A DNA stretch of 64,000 nucleotides from contig JAEOTA010000004.1 of the NCBI GenBank assembly GCA_016840085.1, forward strand, positions 32,001 through 96,000, in the 5' to 3' direction. This document shows, piece by piece, positions 802 to 6,804 of this stretch. Origin of the DNA: Promethearchaeota archaeon (GTDB taxonomy: Archaea; Asgardarchaeota; Lokiarchaeia; Sigyniarchaeales; SOKP01). Below the pieces are notes generated by a model. It saw only the letters and a list, made by a program, of their open reading frames with translations, ran no database searches and was not told where the DNA came from. How positions within the stretch are numbered: the stretch's first letter is position 1; each line of letters begins with the position of its first letter. The position numbers were made by a program, and so were the translations under genes.

Positions 802-1902
802 TCAGCAATAATTTTTCTGTAGTTGATATTTTCTCTTGCAATCACATTCAAATCTATTTTGTTCCAACTCACTTAAATTTTGAGAAAGAACAAAATTCTT
901 AAGTAATAGCTTTGCAGAATTCTCACATTCTCTTTTTAAGCAATTATGTATCCCTCTTCTCGTTCCAGCACCACTAGGATCAGACAAAATTCGAACTTTA
1001 TCTAAATCTTTTTGTGTTAGTGATTTTTTTAAACATTTAAATAGGGAATAATACCACGGAGGTCTATATCTATTTTGATACCAGAGATATTCCACAAGAG
1101 TGCCTTTTTGTATGTTCAATGGATTAATCGATATTGTATTTATTTCTAGTTCAATTAGTTTTCTAATTGAATTTACACAATCATCTATAGCAGCTTGTTC
1201 ATTAAGAAATGGTGGTTTAAATAATAAATAAGCTTTTACACCTATATTATACTCTTTACATTCTTTATATACTTCTTTAAAATCTTCGAATAGAAATCCC
1301 TTATTAATATAATTGTTTCTAATATAATCATTCACAGTTTCAAGTCCAATAGCGATCTCAACATATTTTTCTTTTAGAAATTCTTTTATCTCAGAAAGGC
1401 TCTCTGTAGTTATATATTCTAATCTGCTTTCTATGACGAATTCTTTAATATTTTCGATTTTTGCAATTCTTTCATAAATAGTTCGCCTAACATCTTCAGT
1501 GATTTCTTTTTCATCAAAAAAACTTCCCGAATTAAATATTTTTAATATATAATTATCATGATCCTTTTCTATCTCGCTAATTTTAGTGTTAATAGCATAA
1601 TTAAATTGATTTATAACTTGAGATTGATCAACATCATCAATATTTGCATCATTTACATATCCACACATCGTACATCCACCAGTTTCACCTAATGACCAAC
1701 TACATCCTTTTGTTCTCAGGATAATTGTGAATTGCTTTCCTATTTCATTAATAAGTCGATCTTTTTTTATCCAAAAAGCAATAGGTTGATTTAATTGTTC
1801 TTTTCCATATTTTTTCTTGTTTTTTAGAGTTTTTTCTCTAAAAAATTTAACTTTTTCTGCAATATATTCATTATATTCTTTTAAATTACTATTTTTTATC
1901 AT
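802..1902 (-). CDS. Archaeosine biosynthesis radical SAM enzyme RaSEA (TIGR01210-like)
   Basis: ILRTKGCSW...GGCTMCGY cluster motif, IFNSGSFFD, AIGLET, YRPPW; adjacent to ArcS. Confidence 0.9.
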   Translation of the reverse strand: MIKNSNLKEYNEYIAEKVKFFREKTLKNKKKYGKEQLNQPIAFWIKKDRLINEIGKQFTIILRTKGCSWSLGETGGCTMCGYVNDANIDDVDQSQVINQFNYAINTKISEIEKDHDNYILKIFNSGSFFDEKEITEDVRRTIYERIAKIENIKEFVIESRLEYITTESLSEIKEFLKEKYVEIAIGLETVNDYIRNNYINKGFLFEDFKEVYKECKEYNIGVKAYLLFKPPFLNEQAAIDDCVNSIRKLIELEINTISINPLNIQKGTLVEYLWYQNRYRPPWYYSLFKCLKKSLTQKDLDKVRILSDPSGAGTRRGIHNCLKRECENSAKLLLKNFVLSQNLSELEQNRFECDCKRKYQLQKNYC

Positions 1903-3979
1903 TGATTTTAACTATTCTCCCAGTTTTTGAATTCCTTATAAAATTCGAACCAACTATTAAATTTCCGGTTCCTATTACATCGTTTTTTTCCTTATTTATA
2001 ATGAACGTAAAATTGTTTGGGATTAAATCTTGACTGAAATCTATGATCCCCTTTCGAAATAATGTATTACCTTTAATGTGATCTGCATCAAAGACAATCG
2101 TATTTGAATCTATAGAATAGGGTACTTGAATTAATCGATTAATTCCCTTAAGTGTTAAATCTATTTGGCCTGTAGAGGATTTAAAAACTCCCAATCTTTC
2201 CTTGCTTTTTAAATCTATTAAATTAATATTACCATTAGACTTAAGTTTGATTTGTATTAATTCTTGTGAAATTACTCTCATTCCTGAACCGACACCAAAC
2301 TGATAATCTAATATTTTAATAAATTTTCGAATCCACGATTTTGTTAAAAAATCTCCTTTCTTTAACTGTTGTTTAGGGTTATACTTATCCTTGTATTCAC
2401 TAATTAAATATTCTAATGATTGAAGGGATTCTTTTGATGTTAATTTATCTGAAATTTTTGTAAAAAAGAATTTATGAGGTAATTTAGATTTAGCTCTCTC
2501 AACAATCTCATGATATTCATTTTTAAGATGACAAACAATCGGAATATCCTTATCATATTTTTCTAGCATTTTTACGAGCATTTTAGCAGCGATATTCAAT
2601 TCTTCATTATTCCAATCTCCTGTAACTGAAATATCATACGAATTAACAGGATAAATATTTTCAAATTGTCTTGGAATAACTCCTAAAGGTGAAGTCAGAA
2701 TAAATTCTTGGAAATTTGGAAATTCTGAAAATTTTCTTATTCTTTCATAAAATAATTTATGAGATTTAGATTCAGAATAAGGCTTTTTAGCTGAGCATGG
2801 AAGTAATATGATTAAAGTGGTCCATGGTTCAGGTTCAAAATTTATTATTGCTCTTTCTCTAAATTCTTTAAAATCTGGTCGATTATATGAAGATGGTCCA
2901 AGGCATCTAATTTTTCTATTTTTTATAGTTATAGGTGTTTCATATCTCATTAGATTAAAATATTCTTTATCTAACATTTTCAAAATTGAGATTAAATTAG
3001 TATCATCACACGTAGATTTTTCGACAAAGGCTCTATAATCTTCATAATTTAAATATTGGTTAATTTTATTCATGTAATTAGTTGCCGATATTATATTATG
3101 GAGACATAATAAATCTATTTTCTCAGAAGAATATTTAATATCAAAAAGATTCATTAATTTTCCTTTACAAGCAACACAAGTACAAGGTAAATACCTCACT
3201 TTATATATTGGAAGAAGATACTCTATCGTGTCATAGAAATTTTCAGCTGACAAATATAATAAATAAGAACTGTCAATTAGATCCACGCCTAAATATATTA
3301 AAATAGGATAAAATTTAGGGATTATCCTACCTGAAGCCATTACAACGAGATTGTTGTCCAATTCAGTTTTAATCTCAGAAATAACCCTTGAAATACCTCT
3401 AAAATTACTAAAATTATCAAAAACATCAGATAAGTTTAACAATTTAATATTTTCATTCTGAATTATAATTGGGATATAGAGTTTAAACAATTCAGAATAA
3501 TCAAAAACTTTAATCGTTATGCCAAAATTAAGATTTGGATATTTTTTTAAGATATATTTGATCTTTTTAAGATATTCTTTTATTTCTTTTTCTGCAAAAT
3601 CTTTGTTAATAGATGTTGTAGGAATATTAAAAGGTAATATTGATATTATCTTGTCTTCAGAGAAGATTTCTAAATTTCTTATTAAAAGATCTTCAAAATT
3701 CTCCAAAGTTCCATTAGAAGAAAAAATAAATCCTGTATCCTTGAATTTTTCACGAAGAAATCCAATTTTTAAAAATATCTCTTTTGAAATAATGAAGAGC
3801 TTGTGATTTTCAAATTCTTGTATAAAACTAAATTGTTTCATTAATGAATTTTTTATAGGAATAATTATATTTGGAGTGTTTATATATAGCTTCCGATCTC
3901 TAGATAATGATATCCGCCCTATTCTTGAATAACCTATCCTACTGGCTTTTAATTCAAAAAAATAATTCATACTTTTCAA
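1889..3979 (-). CDS. arcS: Archaeosine synthase alpha subunit ArcS (TGT-like + DUF5591 + PUA)
   Basis: TGT-like N-terminus (SRIGRI, GVDLID, CTCVAC...HN), LLPCSAKKPYSESKSH, TSPLGVIPR, YDISVTGDW, C-terminal PUA. Confidence 0.9.
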   Translation of the reverse strand: MKSMNYFFELKASRIGYSRIGRISLSRDRKLYINTPNIIIPIKNSLMKQFSFIQEFENHKLFIISKEIFLKIGFLREKFKDTGFIFSSNGTLENFEDLLIRNLEIFSEDKIISILPFNIPTTSINKDFAEKEIKEYLKKIKYILKKYPNLNFGITIKVFDYSELFKLYIPIIIQNENIKLLNLSDVFDNFSNFRGISRVISEIKTELDNNLVVMASGRIIPKFYPILIYLGVDLIDSSYLLYLSAENFYDTIEYLLPIYKVRYLPCTCVACKGKLMNLFDIKYSSEKIDLLCLHNIISATNYMNKINQYLNYEDYRAFVEKSTCDDTNLISILKMLDKEYFNLMRYETPITIKNRKIRCLGPSSYNRPDFKEFRERAIINFEPEPWTTLIILLPCSAKKPYSESKSHKLFYERIRKFSEFPNFQEFILTSPLGVIPRQFENIYPVNSYDISVTGDWNNEELNIAAKMLVKMLEKYDKDIPIVCHLKNEYHEIVERAKSKLPHKFFFTKISDKLTSKESLQSLEYLISEYKDKYNPKQQLKKGDFLTKSWIRKFIKILDYQFGVGSGMRVISQELIQIKLKSNGNINLIDLKSKERLGVFKSSTGQIDLTLKGINRLIQVPYSIDSNTIVFDADHIKGNTLFRKGIIDFSQDLIPNNFTFIINKEKNDVIGTGNLIVGSNFIRNSKTGRIVKINDKK

Positions 3980-4092
3980 TAAATACGACTAAATTACTGA
4001 ATTAATTTTTTTCTATTTAATTTATTGAAATATTCTAAAATTATTAAGAATTCACTCATTGGAAATTAATATATCTTTAAAGTCTTATTTTT

Positions 4093-5415
4093 TTAAAAAA
4101 TCAGAAAATTTGTATATAATTTTAACTCATCTAGGACAAAATGAGTAAAAGTGTCTTCGATTTCTTCTGTTAGATAAAGTTGTCTTATGAAATTTCCATA
4201 TTCCTCTATTTTCTTTACACGAACAATAGCTAATAAACCATATTGTTCGCCTATCCGAAAAAGATCAGTAATGTTTTTGTTATTTTCTAATTTGAAGGCA
4301 AGTTCATTGTATTTGGATGGATCTTTTGGTTTAATTCGGAGTATATACTTACCTTTAAAACCTATTTCTTTCGGAGAGAAATCAACTGTGTAATTTAGAA
4401 TTACACCTTGACGTTCAAGTTTTTTAATTCTATTATGTATCGTTGATTGTGATATTTCATCATTATGTTGTTCCTTAAAGATTTTTTTTATTTCGTATGT
4501 TGATATTGGTTTAAGTCCTTGCCCATCCCGCAAAATTTTTAATATTTTATAATCAATATTGTCTATTTTAAGATTTAGATCGATGTTTTTCTTATCTATT
4601 TTTATCCCAATCTTCCTTATAGCTTTAATTATCTTATTTATTACGTGTTCAGCGTCTGTAGTCTCTCTTAAACCGCTTACAATTATTTTACCATTTGAAG
4701 AAATTAAAATGGTTGTGTTAATTTTTTCAAGCTTCATAACAATACCCGGAAATTTCTTGGGATTATATTTAATATCCATATGATTTCGACCGATCAGATT
4801 TAAATCAATTTTCTCTGCAAGTTCTACCTCTGCATTCTCAATTATATAATCTGAATTAGTATCATAATCTTTTTTCTTTTTCAATATGAAATTTAATTGT
4901 TCTACGAGCTCCTCTTCAAAAGTCATATTTAAGCTCCTTAAGCTAATTCCATTTGTTTTAAACACCTTAATGGTTTCAATGATCTGATATTTTTTAAAAT
5001 ATGATCGCGCCATAATTTTATCAATTGTATTTAATATCTGATAATATTCCTCGGGGGATTTAAAGATAAATAAGGCGAATAGAGAAAATTCTCCAAAAAT
5101 ACCATCTAACATTTTTATCTGGGGGATATTCAGCAATTCCTCAACAAGTTCAGGCTCTTTTGGGTTAGTTTTAATTTCAAGCATGACATATTTTAGATTA
5201 TTCGGCCTAAGATTTGGATTAATATTAATTGTAAAATTAGTAATTATTTTTCGATCCCTTAAATTATCAAGCTTGTTTTGATATGTTTGTCTAGAGATAC
5301 CTATCGCACGGGAATTTTTTGAAATAATAAATTTGGTTTTTCCACTTAAATTTTTTATAAAACGCTGGACTTCTACTCGATCTTTATTATTGTTCATAAT
5401 ATAACAGTTTTGCAT
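4093..5415 (-). CDS. Tandem Lrp/AsnC regulator with an internal single TBP-fold domain (Lrp-TBP-Lrp)
   Basis: Two wHTH+RAM modules (aa ~15-160 and ~283-440; IDNIDYKILKIL...SQSTIHNRIKKLERQGVILNYT) flank aa ~189-275 YIIEN...IDLNLI...IKYNPKKFPGIVMKLEKINTTILISSNGKIIVSGLR, a TBP repeat signature. Confidence 0.85.
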   Translation of the reverse strand: MQNCYIMNNNKDRVEVQRFIKNLSGKTKFIISKNSRAIGISRQTYQNKLDNLRDRKIITNFTININPNLRPNNLKYVMLEIKTNPKEPELVEELLNIPQIKMLDGIFGEFSLFALFIFKSPEEYYQILNTIDKIMARSYFKKYQIIETIKVFKTNGISLRSLNMTFEEELVEQLNFILKKKKDYDTNSDYIIENAEVELAEKIDLNLIGRNHMDIKYNPKKFPGIVMKLEKINTTILISSNGKIIVSGLRETTDAEHVINKIIKAIRKIGIKIDKKNIDLNLKIDNIDYKILKILRDGQGLKPISTYEIKKIFKEQHNDEISQSTIHNRIKKLERQGVILNYTVDFSPKEIGFKGKYILRIKPKDPSKYNELAFKLENNKNITDLFRIGEQYGLLAIVRVKKIEEYGNFIRQLYLTEEIEDTFTHFVLDELKLYTNFLIF

Positions 5416-5535
5416 TTTCTTTTAGAAATATTAATTATATGTAAAACCTATTATAAAAATATTTGCACTTAACCAAAAATAGCTTTATTAATTAATTAAA
5501 ATTATAAAGTTTATAACAATAAAAGTGAATTTTAA

Positions 5536-6804
5536 ATGGTAAATTATAAAGTTGCCGATGAAAGTTTAGCAGAAAAAGGAAAGGAAGCACTATATATTGC
5601 AGAAAATAAAATGCCTGTAACCGCGAAAGTTCTGAGAGATCGTTTTGCTAAAGAAAAACCATTGGAAGGTATCACAATAGCAGGCTGCCTTCATGTAACA
5701 AAAGAAACAGGTAATTTGGCTCGCACTTTAAAAGCTGGAGGTGCTGAAGTATATTTATGTGGGAGTAATCCTCTCTCAACTCAAGATGATGTTACGGCTG
5801 CTCTGGTTCAGGAAGGAATAAATGTATTCGCATGGCATGGTAATACAGATGAGGAATTCTATTGGTGTATTCGTGAGTGTCTTAAGGCTAAACCCAATAT
5901 CCTAATTGATGATGGTGCCGATATGATTGTTACTGCGCATCAAGAGTTTGAAGATTTGATAAAATCGGGCACTATTATAGCATGCCAAGAGGAAACTACT
6001 ACGGGTGTTAAAAGATTTAGAGCGATGGAAAAGCAAGGAAAATTGAAGATACCTTTATTTCCTGTCAATGATGCTAGATGTAAGAATCAATTTGATAACG
6101 AGCTTGGAACGGGACAAGGAATTGTTTCTGCGATTTATGGAATGCATATTCTTTTTGCGGGTAAGGTTTGTGTGATTAGTGGATATGGACACTGTTCATC
6201 TGGAATGGCACTAAGAGCAAGGGGTCTTGGTGCTAACGTGGTTGTCACTGAAGTTGATCCGATTAAAGCACTTCAAGCTAAATTTGCAGGATATCAAGTT
6301 ATGCCTATAGCAGAAGCTCTACCAATTGCTGATATAATCCTAACAGCGACAGGGTGCAAACACGTGATTGCTCCGACAAAAGAGATGTTCAATAAGTTAA
6401 AAGACGGAGTAATTCTTGGTAATCTTGGACATTTTGACATTGAAATTCCAACCAAGGAATTATACGAATACGCAAAATGGATAAAACCTATTCGTTCTAA
6501 TGTGGAAGAATTGACCTTTCCTGATGGCAAAAGAGTTTATCTACTCGCCAAAGGGAGATTAGCTAACCTTGTTTTATCTGAGGGACACCCCAGTGAGATC
6601 ATGGATATGTCTTTTGCCCTTCAATCCTTAATGTCGGAATATATTGTAAAAAATAAAGATTCCCTAAAACCAGGTATGCTTGAGGTTCCAACTGATATTG
6701 ATGATAAAGTTGGTTTTCTAAAACTTAAAGCTATGGGTGTTGAGATTGATACCTTAACAACGGAACAATATAATTACATACACGGTTATGAAGAAGGAAC
6801 TTAA
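5536..6804 (+). CDS. ahcY: Adenosylhomocysteinase
   Basis: GCLHVTKET, SNPLSTQDD, DDGAD, EETTTGV, GHFDIEI, GRLANL, GHPSEIMDMSF motifs. Confidence 0.97.
   Translation: MVNYKVADESLAEKGKEALYIAENKMPVTAKVLRDRFAKEKPLEGITIAGCLHVTKETGNLARTLKAGGAEVYLCGSNPLSTQDDVTAALVQEGINVFAWHGNTDEEFYWCIRECLKAKPNILIDDGADMIVTAHQEFEDLIKSGTIIACQEETTTGVKRFRAMEKQGKLKIPLFPVNDARCKNQFDNELGTGQGIVSAIYGMHILFAGKVCVISGYGHCSSGMALRARGLGANVVVTEVDPIKALQAKFAGYQVMPIAEALPIADIILTATGCKHVIAPTKEMFNKLKDGVILGNLGHFDIEIPTKELYEYAKWIKPIRSNVEELTFPDGKRVYLLAKGRLANLVLSEGHPSEIMDMSFALQSLMSEYIVKNKDSLKPGMLEVPTDIDDKVGFLKLKAMGVEIDTLTTEQYNYIHGYEEGT

What the first reader, a model, noticed from the sequence alone, without database searches (positions are those of the whole stretch)
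4093..5415. Lrp-TBP-Lrp fusion: a gene-specific regulator carrying half of a TATA-binding protein
Seen: two complete Lrp/AsnC modules (wHTH + RAM) separated by about 87 aa (about 4591-4851) that follow the TBP repeat signature I-E-N...D-L...Y-N-P-x-x-F-P-G...I-x-S-x-G-K-I-x-x-x-G...helix. Only one of TBP's two repeats is present. The first intercalating Phe (FPG) is kept, while the second (LIFxSGK) appears replaced by Ser (LISSNGK). Established: archaeal Lrp-type activators such as Ptr2 work by recruiting TBP, and single TBP-fold domains are known in RNase HIII and AlkA/Ogg1 glycosylases. I know of no Lrp-TBP fusion. Inference: Lrp oligomerisation could pair two half-TBPs into a saddle, giving a ligand-controlled, promoter-specific TBP surrogate or a TFB/TBP decoy. 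The gene is divergent from ahcY (120-bp spacer) and co-oriented upstream of arcS-RaSEA-gar1-tfb, so those are candidate targets.
Basis: partly seen in the sequence, partly recalled or inferred. Interest (0 to 1): 0.85.

Follow-up and report, generated by a model that had tools for sequence, protein, structure and literature searches.

The report
Lrp regulator carrying half a TBP
An Asgard archaeon's gene regulator, encoded next to the SAH-hydrolase gene, has a copy of one half of the cell's own TATA-binding protein spliced between its two Lrp units; the fusion is real, conserved and apparently undescribed, but the half is optional and is more likely an extra DNA grip than a private TBP.

Summary
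ORF 4093-5415 (-) encodes wHTH+RAM, then one TBP repeat, then wHTH+RAM. The repeat matches PF00352 at E 2e-16 and P. woesei TBP at 3e-21.

The repeat is 50% identical to the N-terminal lobe of this genome's own TBP. In a tree it nests inside that family's TBP N-lobes as a single clade, so it was captured once.

The double-Lrp gene sits between ahcY (divergent) and arcS in all 28 related loci where both flanks could be read. Only 18 of 68 genomes of one GTDB family that hold the double-Lrp gene carry the lobe. It was deleted cleanly several times between short TTTGAA repeats.

The lobe is under purifying selection (dN/dS about 0.3, against about 0.1 for the Lrp units). It keeps the TBP DNA-contact residues on strands S2-S5. 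Its central strand S1 is shortened, acidic, or absent in about 28% of relatives. In this genome the second intercalating Phe is Ser, a very recent change.

My reading is an optional accessory minor-groove contact on a ligand-responsive ahcY/self regulator. A paired-saddle TBP surrogate is unsupported. No paper describing this was found. This scan has already followed up the same family in other genomes and reached the same conclusion.

The parts
4093..5415 (-). ORF of the double-Lrp regulator with an inserted TBP lobe (440 aa from the first ATG; probably 434 aa from Met7)
5395..5397 (-). Probable true start codon (Met7). This ATG is conserved in all aligned orthologs; the upstream ATG is present in only a few.
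   Evidence: (alignment of the intergenic region plus gene starts)
5254..5388 (-). Unit A winged helix-turn-helix (aa 10-54). The recognition helix R42-Q43-T44-Y45-Q46-N47-K48 is invariant or nearly invariant in the family.
4960..5193 (-). Unit A RAM (Lrp/AsnC ligand-binding) domain, aa 75-152
   Evidence: PF01037 at 22.9 bits, just below the cut-off of 25; beta-alpha-beta-beta-alpha-beta
4840..4938 (-). Left part of the insert (aa 160-192): linker with an acidic amphipathic helix (aa 166-179), which search alignments pair with TBP's acidic N-terminal tail. The left copy of the flanking TTTGAA (Phe-Glu) direct repeat lies here.
4591..4839 (-). Single TBP lobe (aa 193-275) with elements S1-H1-S2-S3-S4/5-H2. 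It is 50% identical to the N-lobe of the genome's own TBP.
4750..4752 (-). F222, equivalent to the first TATA-intercalating Phe of a TBP lobe. Invariant in 106/106 relatives.
4699..4701 (-). S239, at the position of the second intercalating Phe. It is Phe in 96/106 relatives and in the 94%-identical ortholog G276.
4396..4566 (-). Unit B winged helix-turn-helix (aa 284-340). The recognition helix S322-Q323-S324-T325..N328-R329 is invariant. The right copy of the Phe-Glu repeat in relatives lies just upstream of it.
4126..4353 (-). Unit B RAM domain (aa 355-430)
5416..5535 (.). Divergent intergenic region shared with ahcY. It is strongly conserved in loci with and without the lobe and contains TATA-like elements for both genes. 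It is the candidate operator region.
5536..6804 (+). ahcY (adenosylhomocysteinase), divergently transcribed. It occupies the same position in all 28 related loci where this flank could be read.
1889..3979 (-). ArcS-like archaeosine synthase gene downstream on the same strand. It is syntenic in the related loci long enough to show it.

Best explanation
Shown:
- The gene encodes a single-chain double Lrp/AsnC (feast/famine type) regulator. It has two wHTH+RAM units with different recognition helices, each nearly invariant across the family.
- It is a positional ortholog across one GTDB family of Asgard (Lokiarchaeia-type) archaea, always divergent from ahcY.
- In the linker between the two units it carries a copy of the N-terminal lobe of the lineage's own TBP, apparently with part of TBP's acidic N-terminal tail.
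- That copy was captured once. It is kept under purifying selection that is about three-fold weaker than on the Lrp units. It has been deleted cleanly several times.

Inferred:
- The Lrp core is a ligand-responsive regulator of the shared ahcY/self promoter region. The ligand is perhaps a metabolite of the SAM/SAH cycle.
- The TBP lobe acts in cis as an optional accessory DNA contact. It would use the outer S2-S5 face with its Phe and Lys/Arg residues to grip or kink AT-rich, TATA-like minor groove next to the Lrp operator.
- This would add affinity or bending, or occlude a TATA box from the real TBP.
- It does not rebuild a two-lobe saddle and does not replace TBP.
- In this genome the second Phe is Ser, so any kinking should be weaker than in most relatives.
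For: Architecture and fold.

Origin: the insert is 50% identical to the genome's own TBP N-lobe (E 2e-33) and 27% to the C-lobe. All 94 inserts score higher on an N-lobe HMM (median 84.5 against 45.6 bits). The inserts form one clade (SH-aLRT 86) nested within the N-lobes of this family's TBPs (97*).

Orthology and target: ahcY is divergent in all 28 related loci with that flank, whether or not they carry the lobe, and arcS lies downstream in 26 of 29. The intergenic region is conserved. There is one copy per genome.

Optional lobe: 18 of 68 family genomes carry it. It is mixed within two genera. Forms without the lobe are nested among forms with it, needing 7 changes, of which at least 4 are forced by well-supported branches. 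The deletion junctions differ and lie between TTTGAA/Phe-Glu direct repeats.

Selection: dN/dS is 0.15-0.46 in 11 of 12 pairs (0.85 in one very close pair) for the lobe, against 0.04-0.21 for the Lrp units.

DNA face kept: F222 is present in 106/106, position 221 is K/R in 103/106, K243/R in 101/106, position 245 is V/I in 96/106, position 247 is T/S/N in 91/106, and the second Phe is present in 96/106. The exposed residues of helix H2 and the stirrup vary.

Against a saddle: S1 is shortened, acidic or missing.
Against: - No DNA binding by the lobe has been shown, and no structure with DNA could be predicted here.
- The second Phe has been replaced independently by S, C, L, N, Y and even D/E in about 10 of 106 relatives. 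A Phe-pair kink is therefore not universally required, and the invariant first Phe could be kept for folding (the FPG motif).
- No promoter element specific to loci with the lobe was seen, so the lobe has no identified DNA target.
- Repeated loss shows that the core function does not need it.
- The ligand and the regulon are inferred from gene position only.
Confidence: 0.45

Rival explanations
1. One reading: oligomerisation of the Lrp units brings two half-TBPs together into a homodimeric saddle. This would give a ligand-gated, promoter-specific TBP surrogate that recruits TFB and RNA polymerase.
For: The lobe is a true TBP lobe with most DNA-contact residues of S2-S5 conserved. Lrp proteins oligomerise (established knowledge). 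Stand-alone single-lobe TBP-domain proteins exist in some archaea (PMC3597702).
Against: The S1 strand lies at the centre of the saddle and forms the lobe-lobe seam in TBP. Here it is 4 residues shorter, has Glu/Asp at the DNA-facing positions, and is absent in about 28% of relatives. The lobe is of N-type, while TFB binds the C-lobe stirrup (PDB 1AIS). The lobe is dispensable at the same locus. The genome keeps a normal TBP.
Confidence: 0.1
2. The lobe is a protein-binding module. It would dock a partner that normally recognises TBP's N-lobe, or it would bind the real TBP or TFB. The result would be recruitment of the basal machinery (a hard-wired version of Ptr2-type TBP recruitment) or a decoy for it.
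For: Archaeal Lrp activators such as Ptr2 act by recruiting TBP (established knowledge). The acidic helix stretch retained with the lobe (search alignments pair it with TBP's acidic tail) could bind a basic surface. A second, unrelated protein in the same archaeal family has also captured the N-lobe, as expected for a portable interaction module.
Against: The exposed residues of helices H1 and H2 and of the stirrup, which are the usual protein-contact surfaces of TBP, are variable among the inserts, while the concave-face residues are the conserved ones. No archaeal partner of the TBP N-lobe is known (my knowledge).
Confidence: 0.2
3. The lobe is a nearly neutral passenger. It would be a folded spacer in a tolerant linker with no specific function, on its way to being lost.
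For: It has been lost repeatedly and cleanly. It evolves faster than the flanks. No promoter change accompanies the lobe. The second Phe is already lost in this genome.
Against: dN/dS is clearly below 1 in 11 of 12 pairs (0.15-0.46; 0.85 in one very close pair), and the frame is intact in about 100 divergent clusters. Conservation is position-specific for surface-exposed DNA-contact residues of TBP. This genome's lobe is among the most TBP-like (rank 10 of 94).
Confidence: 0.15

Closest known systems
Archaeal Lrp/AsnC (feast/famine) regulators, e.g. P. horikoshii FL11/PH1519 (PDB 2cyy, 2e1c), P. furiosus LrpA (1i1g), LysM, Ptr2
   Same: Each unit has an N-terminal wHTH plus a C-terminal RAM domain. 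The gene lies divergent from a metabolic gene, as is typical for local Lrp-type regulators.
   Different: Two non-identical units are fused in one chain, a covalent pseudo-heterodimer. A TBP lobe sits in the inter-unit linker. The ligand, operator and oligomeric state are unknown.
Archaeal TATA-binding protein (P. woesei 1pcz/1ais; the genome's own TBP at G000:C53, L001:1441-2103)
   Same: The insert is a true PF00352 repeat derived from the N-lobe of the lineage's own TBP. It is 50% identical and keeps the FPG Phe and the S2-S5 DNA-contact residues.
   Different: There is only one lobe and no C-lobe/TFB stirrup. S1 is shortened and acidic. The second Phe is Ser in this genome. The lobe is embedded in another protein and is optional.
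Single TBP-domain proteins and TBP-fold domains in RNase HIII and AlkA/Ogg1-type glycosylases (Brindefalk et al. 2013, PMC3597702)
   Same: A single TBP-fold lobe is used outside the two-lobe TBP, in some cases as a nucleic-acid-binding accessory domain.
   Different: Those domains are ancient and very divergent in sequence. This lobe is a recent copy, at the level of one taxonomic family, of a real TBP lobe, and it is inserted into a sequence-specific regulator. No Lrp fusion is mentioned in that paper (0 occurrences of Lrp/AsnC).
Second half-TBP carrier in the same archaeal family (P0180, 320 aa; L091-L093)
   Same: The same kind of N-type TBP lobe (PF00352, E 2e-23) is added to an unrelated protein. 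It is again optional: orthologs of about 225-248 aa lack it.
   Different: The lobe is C-terminal on a domain of unknown family. It is closer to the canonical N-lobe (about 61-62% identity), so it looks like a separate capture; no tree was built for it. It is not present in this genome.

Membership tests
Lrp/AsnC (FFRP) transcription regulators | N-terminal winged helix-turn-helix DNA-binding domain | tested here: met
   Unit B: HTH_24 at 26.6 bits, above the cut-off of 21.9. Unit A: no Pfam call, but it is homologous to unit B across the recognition helix (E 4e-7), AF2 gives three helices, and the helix is invariant in the family.
Lrp/AsnC (FFRP) transcription regulators | C-terminal RAM / AsnC_trans_reg ligand-binding domain (beta-alpha-beta-beta-alpha-beta) | tested here: met
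   Unit B: PF01037 at 34.5 bits, above the cut-off of 25. Unit A: 22.9 bits, just below it. Both units show the beta-alpha-beta-beta-alpha-beta pattern in the AF2 model. Foldseek finds FL11 and relatives at E 2e-8.
Lrp/AsnC (FFRP) transcription regulators | Dimer and higher oligomer formation with effector (amino acid) binding at RAM interfaces | not testable with these tools
The monomer model has low global confidence (pTM 0.41).
TATA-binding protein (TBP) | Two tandem PF00352 repeats forming one saddle | tested here: not met
   There is one repeat only.
TATA-binding protein (TBP) | PF00352 repeat with the S1-H1-S2-S3-S4-S5-H2 fold | tested here: met
   E 2e-16, 59.9 bits. PDB TBPs at E 3e-21. 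AF2 secondary-structure elements with pLDDT 70-84. Foldseek hits to TBPs at E about 4e-6.
TATA-binding protein (TBP) | Pair of DNA-intercalating Phe residues per lobe | tested here: not met
   F222 is present. The second position is Ser239 in this protein, but Phe in 96/106 relatives.
TATA-binding protein (TBP) | Central S1 minor-groove contacts (Asn/Val/Thr) and the S1-S1' seam | tested here: inconclusive
   The Asn is kept here. The next two DNA-facing positions are Glu. S1 carries a 4-residue deletion and is absent in about 28% of relatives. Which side each residue faces is inferred from alignment, not from a structure.
TATA-binding protein (TBP) | C-lobe stirrup that binds TFB | tested here: not met
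   The lobe is of N-type in sequence and in phylogeny.
Monopartite TBP-domain proteins (PMC3597702) | [quoted passage not shown] | tested here: not met
   The lobe is embedded between two Lrp units. The single-stretch short hits in the library search were truncated canonical TBPs.

The most novel reading that the evidence does not exclude
Two captured N-lobes, brought together by Lrp oligomerisation on the ahcY/self promoter, form a homodimeric TBP-like saddle whose assembly is controlled by the Lrp ligand. This would be a living example of the hypothesised single-lobe ancestor of TBP working as a dimer, and of a gene-specific regulator that supplies its own TATA-binding activity.
Probability: 0.08. 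Interest if true: 0.9.

Novelty: new variant of a known kind. Interest (0 to 1): 0.6.

Why it matters
TBP is the universal two-lobe platform of archaeal and eukaryotic transcription initiation. How its lobes evolved, and whether one lobe can work alone, is an old open question.

Here a recent copy of a real TBP lobe, whose origin can be traced, has been spliced into a sequence-specific, ligand-sensing regulator in the archaeal group closest to eukaryotes. Orthologs with and without the lobe sit at the same locus, which is a natural experiment.

This makes two things directly testable with a simple pair of proteins and a 120-bp promoter:
- what a single TBP lobe can do on DNA;
- whether covalently coupling a basal-factor module to a gene-specific regulator changes promoter use.

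A second independent capture of the same lobe in the same family suggests that the lobe is a reusable module.

Tried and rejected
- Homodimer test. Complex prediction on the insert (aa 163-284, 2 copies, family alignment) gave no support (score 0.01).
- Expression. No RNA holder is listed among the public runs, so expression could not be addressed.
- Promoter element specific to lobe-carrying loci. Alignment of 29 intergenic regions shows the same conserved blocks whether or not the lobe is present.
- Inverted repeats in 5390-5545. Many short AT-only pairs were found. I judged them uninterpretable in DNA of about 25% GC.
- Other half-TBPs suggested. G034:C88 and G012:C1 turned out to be divergent two-lobe TBP paralogs.
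- Short single-stretch hits P0123, P0128, P0149, P0187 and P0214. These are truncated or frameshifted canonical TBPs.
- Paralog without the lobe in this genome. None was found, so the two forms are alternative orthologs and not paralogs.
- Siroheme decarboxylase (AhbA/B, Lrp-like enzymes). Only marginal hits (E 0.012), and both recognition helices are conserved, so a regulator is more likely.
- Literature. Four full-text searches and two targeted papers gave no mention of an Lrp-TBP fusion.
- Full-length AF2 model. It has low global confidence (pLDDT 63, pTM 0.41), so I drew no conclusions on how the domains are arranged.
Full report
1. What is there.

The ORF at 4093-5415 on the minus strand is open for 440 aa. 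Pfam finds one TBP repeat (PF00352, aa 195-268, E 2.1e-16, 59.9 bits against a cut-off of 22.9). It also finds two stretches of the Lrp/AsnC ligand-binding domain and a winged HTH.

Against PDB sequences the best hits are archaeal TBPs (P. woesei 1pcz, E 3e-21). The N-repeat aligns better than the C-repeat. Next comes the Lrp-type regulator FL11/PH1519 (E 2.5e-14).

I then scanned the three parts separately. The C-terminal unit is a clear Lrp (PF01037 34.5 bits, HTH_24 26.6 bits). The N-terminal unit is weaker (PF01037 22.9 bits, just below the cut-off, and no HTH call). It is still homologous to the C-terminal unit from the recognition helix into the RAM domain (30% identity, E 4e-7).

An AlphaFold2 model built on 101 relatives has modest confidence (mean pLDDT 63, pTM 0.41). 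It gives three helices plus a beta-alpha-beta-beta-alpha-beta unit twice. Between them lies an S1-H1-S2-S3-S4/5-H2 lobe with pLDDT 70-84, preceded by an extra helix at aa 166-179. Foldseek finds both Lrp regulators (E 2e-8) and TBPs (E about 4e-6).

The ATG at 5395-5397 (Met7) is conserved in every ortholog, while the first ATG is not. The real protein is therefore probably 434 aa.

2. It is not an artefact.

About 94 of the 120 best protein clusters in a 5.8-billion-protein collection have the same Lrp-TBP-Lrp architecture (400-443 aa). They come from many assemblies named as Promethearchaeota/Lokiarchaeia and are annotated only as "Lrp/AsnC ligand binding domain-containing protein".

Contigs from other sediment and mangrove studies cover the insert junctions at nt 4569 and 4938. 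Run X5 spans 4227-5176 at 96% identity and bridges both junctions with over 200 nt on each side. Run X6 spans 3950-4969, crossing the 4569 junction and reaching 31 nt beyond the 4938 junction.

3. Where the lobe came from.

The genome has one canonical TBP (220 aa, L001:1441-2103) and no other PF00352 hit. The insert is 50% identical (71% similar) over 100 aa to the N-lobe of that TBP (E 2e-33), with a 4-residue gap in S1. It is only 27% identical to the C-lobe. Search alignments also pair the acidic stretch just before the lobe with TBP's acidic N-terminal tail, so the copy seems to include part of that tail.

All 94 distinct inserts score higher on an HMM of Asgard N-lobes than on one of C-lobes (median 84.5 against 45.6 bits).

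In a tree of 94 inserts and 47 canonical TBPs split into lobes, three things hold. The C-lobes are one clade (99*). The inserts are one clade (SH-aLRT 86). That clade nests inside the N-lobes of this one GTDB family (97*), after the TBPs of two of its genera branch off (88).

So the lobe was copied once from the lineage's own TBP, fairly recently.

4. It is optional.

Relatives of about 318 aa are the same protein without aa about 160-283. This genome has only the form with the lobe.

In 301 Asgard genomes the double-Lrp gene is found in 67 of 68 genomes of one family and, at this threshold, nowhere else as a full match. Counting this genome, 68 family genomes hold the gene and 18 of them carry the lobe: 9 of 23 in the window's genus and 9 in a second genus (27 searched, 26 with a match). 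The rest do not carry it, and there is one locus per genome.

All 28 related loci where that flank could be read, with or without the lobe, have ahcY divergent upstream. arcS lies downstream in 26 of 29. They are therefore positional orthologs.

I built a tree from the Lrp columns only. Forms without the lobe sit both at the base and nested inside clades that carry the lobe. This needs 7 changes, of which at least 4 are forced by well-supported branches.

The insert is flanked by a short direct repeat: left ...S-F-E-E-E..., right ...N-F-E-I-D..., with TTTGAA at the DNA level. Basal forms without the lobe have a single xNFEID. The nested forms without the lobe have different junctions (SFDID, TSELD, KSNSNFEID, LGDHIRKID), as expected for separate deletions.

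Some exchange of alleles between genera is also likely. G291 has flanks typical of the window's genus (ArcS-like protein 70% identical), but its regulator groups with the other genus (99*).

5. Is the lobe doing something?

Pairwise dN/dS (NG86) is 0.15-0.46 in 11 of 12 pairs for the lobe (0.85 in one very close pair) and 0.04-0.21 for the two Lrp units. That means purifying selection, about three-fold weaker than on the Lrp units.

Across 106 distinct relatives the equivalents of TBP's DNA-contact residues on S2-S5 are kept:
- F222 in 106/106
- K/R at position 221 in 103/106
- K/R at position 243 in 101/106
- V/I at position 245 in 96/106
- T/S/N at position 247 in 91/106
- the second Phe (position 239) in 96/106

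The exposed residues of helix H2 and the stirrup vary.

S1 is different. It forms the centre of the saddle and the seam between lobes in TBP (established structural knowledge). Here it reads N-I-E-I-E-I in the family consensus, with Glu at the positions that face DNA by alignment. About 28% of relatives lack the linker helix and S1 altogether.

In this genome the second Phe is Ser (codon 4699-4701). The 94%-identical ortholog G276 still has Phe, so the change is very recent. Ten relatives have replaced this Phe independently, with S, C, L, N, Y, D or E. Otherwise this genome's lobe is among the most TBP-like (rank 10 of 94).

6. Most likely mechanism.

The Lrp core has two different invariant recognition helices. 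It is best read as a single-chain pseudo-heterodimer that binds an asymmetric operator in the conserved ahcY/self intergenic region and responds to a small ligand. This is inferred from family knowledge and gene position.

A distant double-Lrp homolog in another Asgard family lies next to an MtaD/DadD-like adenosyl-nucleoside deaminase. This is a weak hint toward metabolism of SAM by-products.

The lobe sits in the linker that leads into the second wHTH. It keeps the outer DNA face of a TBP lobe and has lost the central one. I therefore favour an optional accessory contact with AT-rich minor groove near the operator, giving extra affinity, bending or TATA occlusion (confidence about 0.45).

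Rivals:
- a protein-docking module (about 0.2);
- a nearly neutral passenger (about 0.15);

7. Comparison with what is known, and novelty.

[quoted passage not shown] It is not a TBP: it has one lobe, no TFB stirrup, and here only one of the two Phe residues.

Single TBP-fold domains are known in RNase HIII, in glycosylases and in small stand-alone archaeal proteins (PMC3597702). Those are ancient and divergent, and neither that paper nor PMC7221094 mentions an Lrp fusion. Four full-text searches found no description. I class it as a new variant of a known kind.

This scan has already followed up the same family in at least five other genomes with the same conclusion. I reached my reading before seeing those notes, and I re-tested the main claims here.

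One of those notes said the half-TBP also occurs on other proteins, and I followed that lead. An exhaustive search with the lobe found P0180, a 320-aa protein with an unknown N-terminal domain and a C-terminal N-type lobe (PF00352, E 2e-23). It is full-length in three genomes of the second genus, while orthologs of about 225-248 aa lack the lobe. Those three genomes have the double-Lrp gene without the lobe. This family is not present in the window's genome.

Noticed in passing
L091 (G153:C150:5696-6655), L092, L093; protein P0180: A second, unrelated protein in the same archaeal family carries a C-terminal N-type TBP lobe (PF00352, E 2e-23; about 61-62% identical to canonical N-lobes) after a 220-aa domain of unknown family. 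Orthologs of about 225-248 aa in other genomes lack the lobe. The three genomes with this fusion (G153, G113, G071) have the double-Lrp gene without the lobe.
   Followed up: partly
L090:598-1686 (+) and L090:1705-2706 (-), genome G044: A distant 362-aa double Lrp-Lrp homolog without a TBP lobe, in another Asgard family, lies tail-to-tail with an MtaD/DadD-like deaminase (5'-deoxyadenosine/MTA/SAH deaminase family). This is a weak hint that double-Lrp regulators are tied to metabolism of SAM by-products.
   Followed up: partly
L088:988-1524 (-), L089:971-1510 (-): Divergent two-lobe TBP paralogs (178-179 aa) occur in another Asgard family. Their first lobe lacks the FPG Phe (it reads ...FYGGRVAY...), while the second lobe is canonical.
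   Followed up: partly
L001:1441-2103 (-) and neighbours: The genome's canonical TBP has a 27-residue, strongly acidic N-terminal tail. Its gene lies next to a small Ras/Rab-like GTPase gene (L001:2344-2871) and a 212-aa ORF (L001:5-643).
   Followed up: no
G040:C41:92124-92726, G030:C135:935-1483, G049:C2:88989-89579: Several genomes of the same family encode extra full-length TBP paralogs (56-69% identical to the main TBP). The window's genome has only one TBP.
   Followed up: no
proteins P0122 (376 aa) and P0193 (702 aa): Metagenomic proteins with four PF00352 repeats in one chain (double TBPs) turned up in the library search with the lobe.
   Followed up: no
L020 (G291:C40:6772-8031): The flanking ArcS-like protein is as similar to the window's as expected within its genus (70%). 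The regulator itself groups with alleles of a different genus (99* support). This suggests allele exchange between genera at this conserved locus.
   Followed up: partly
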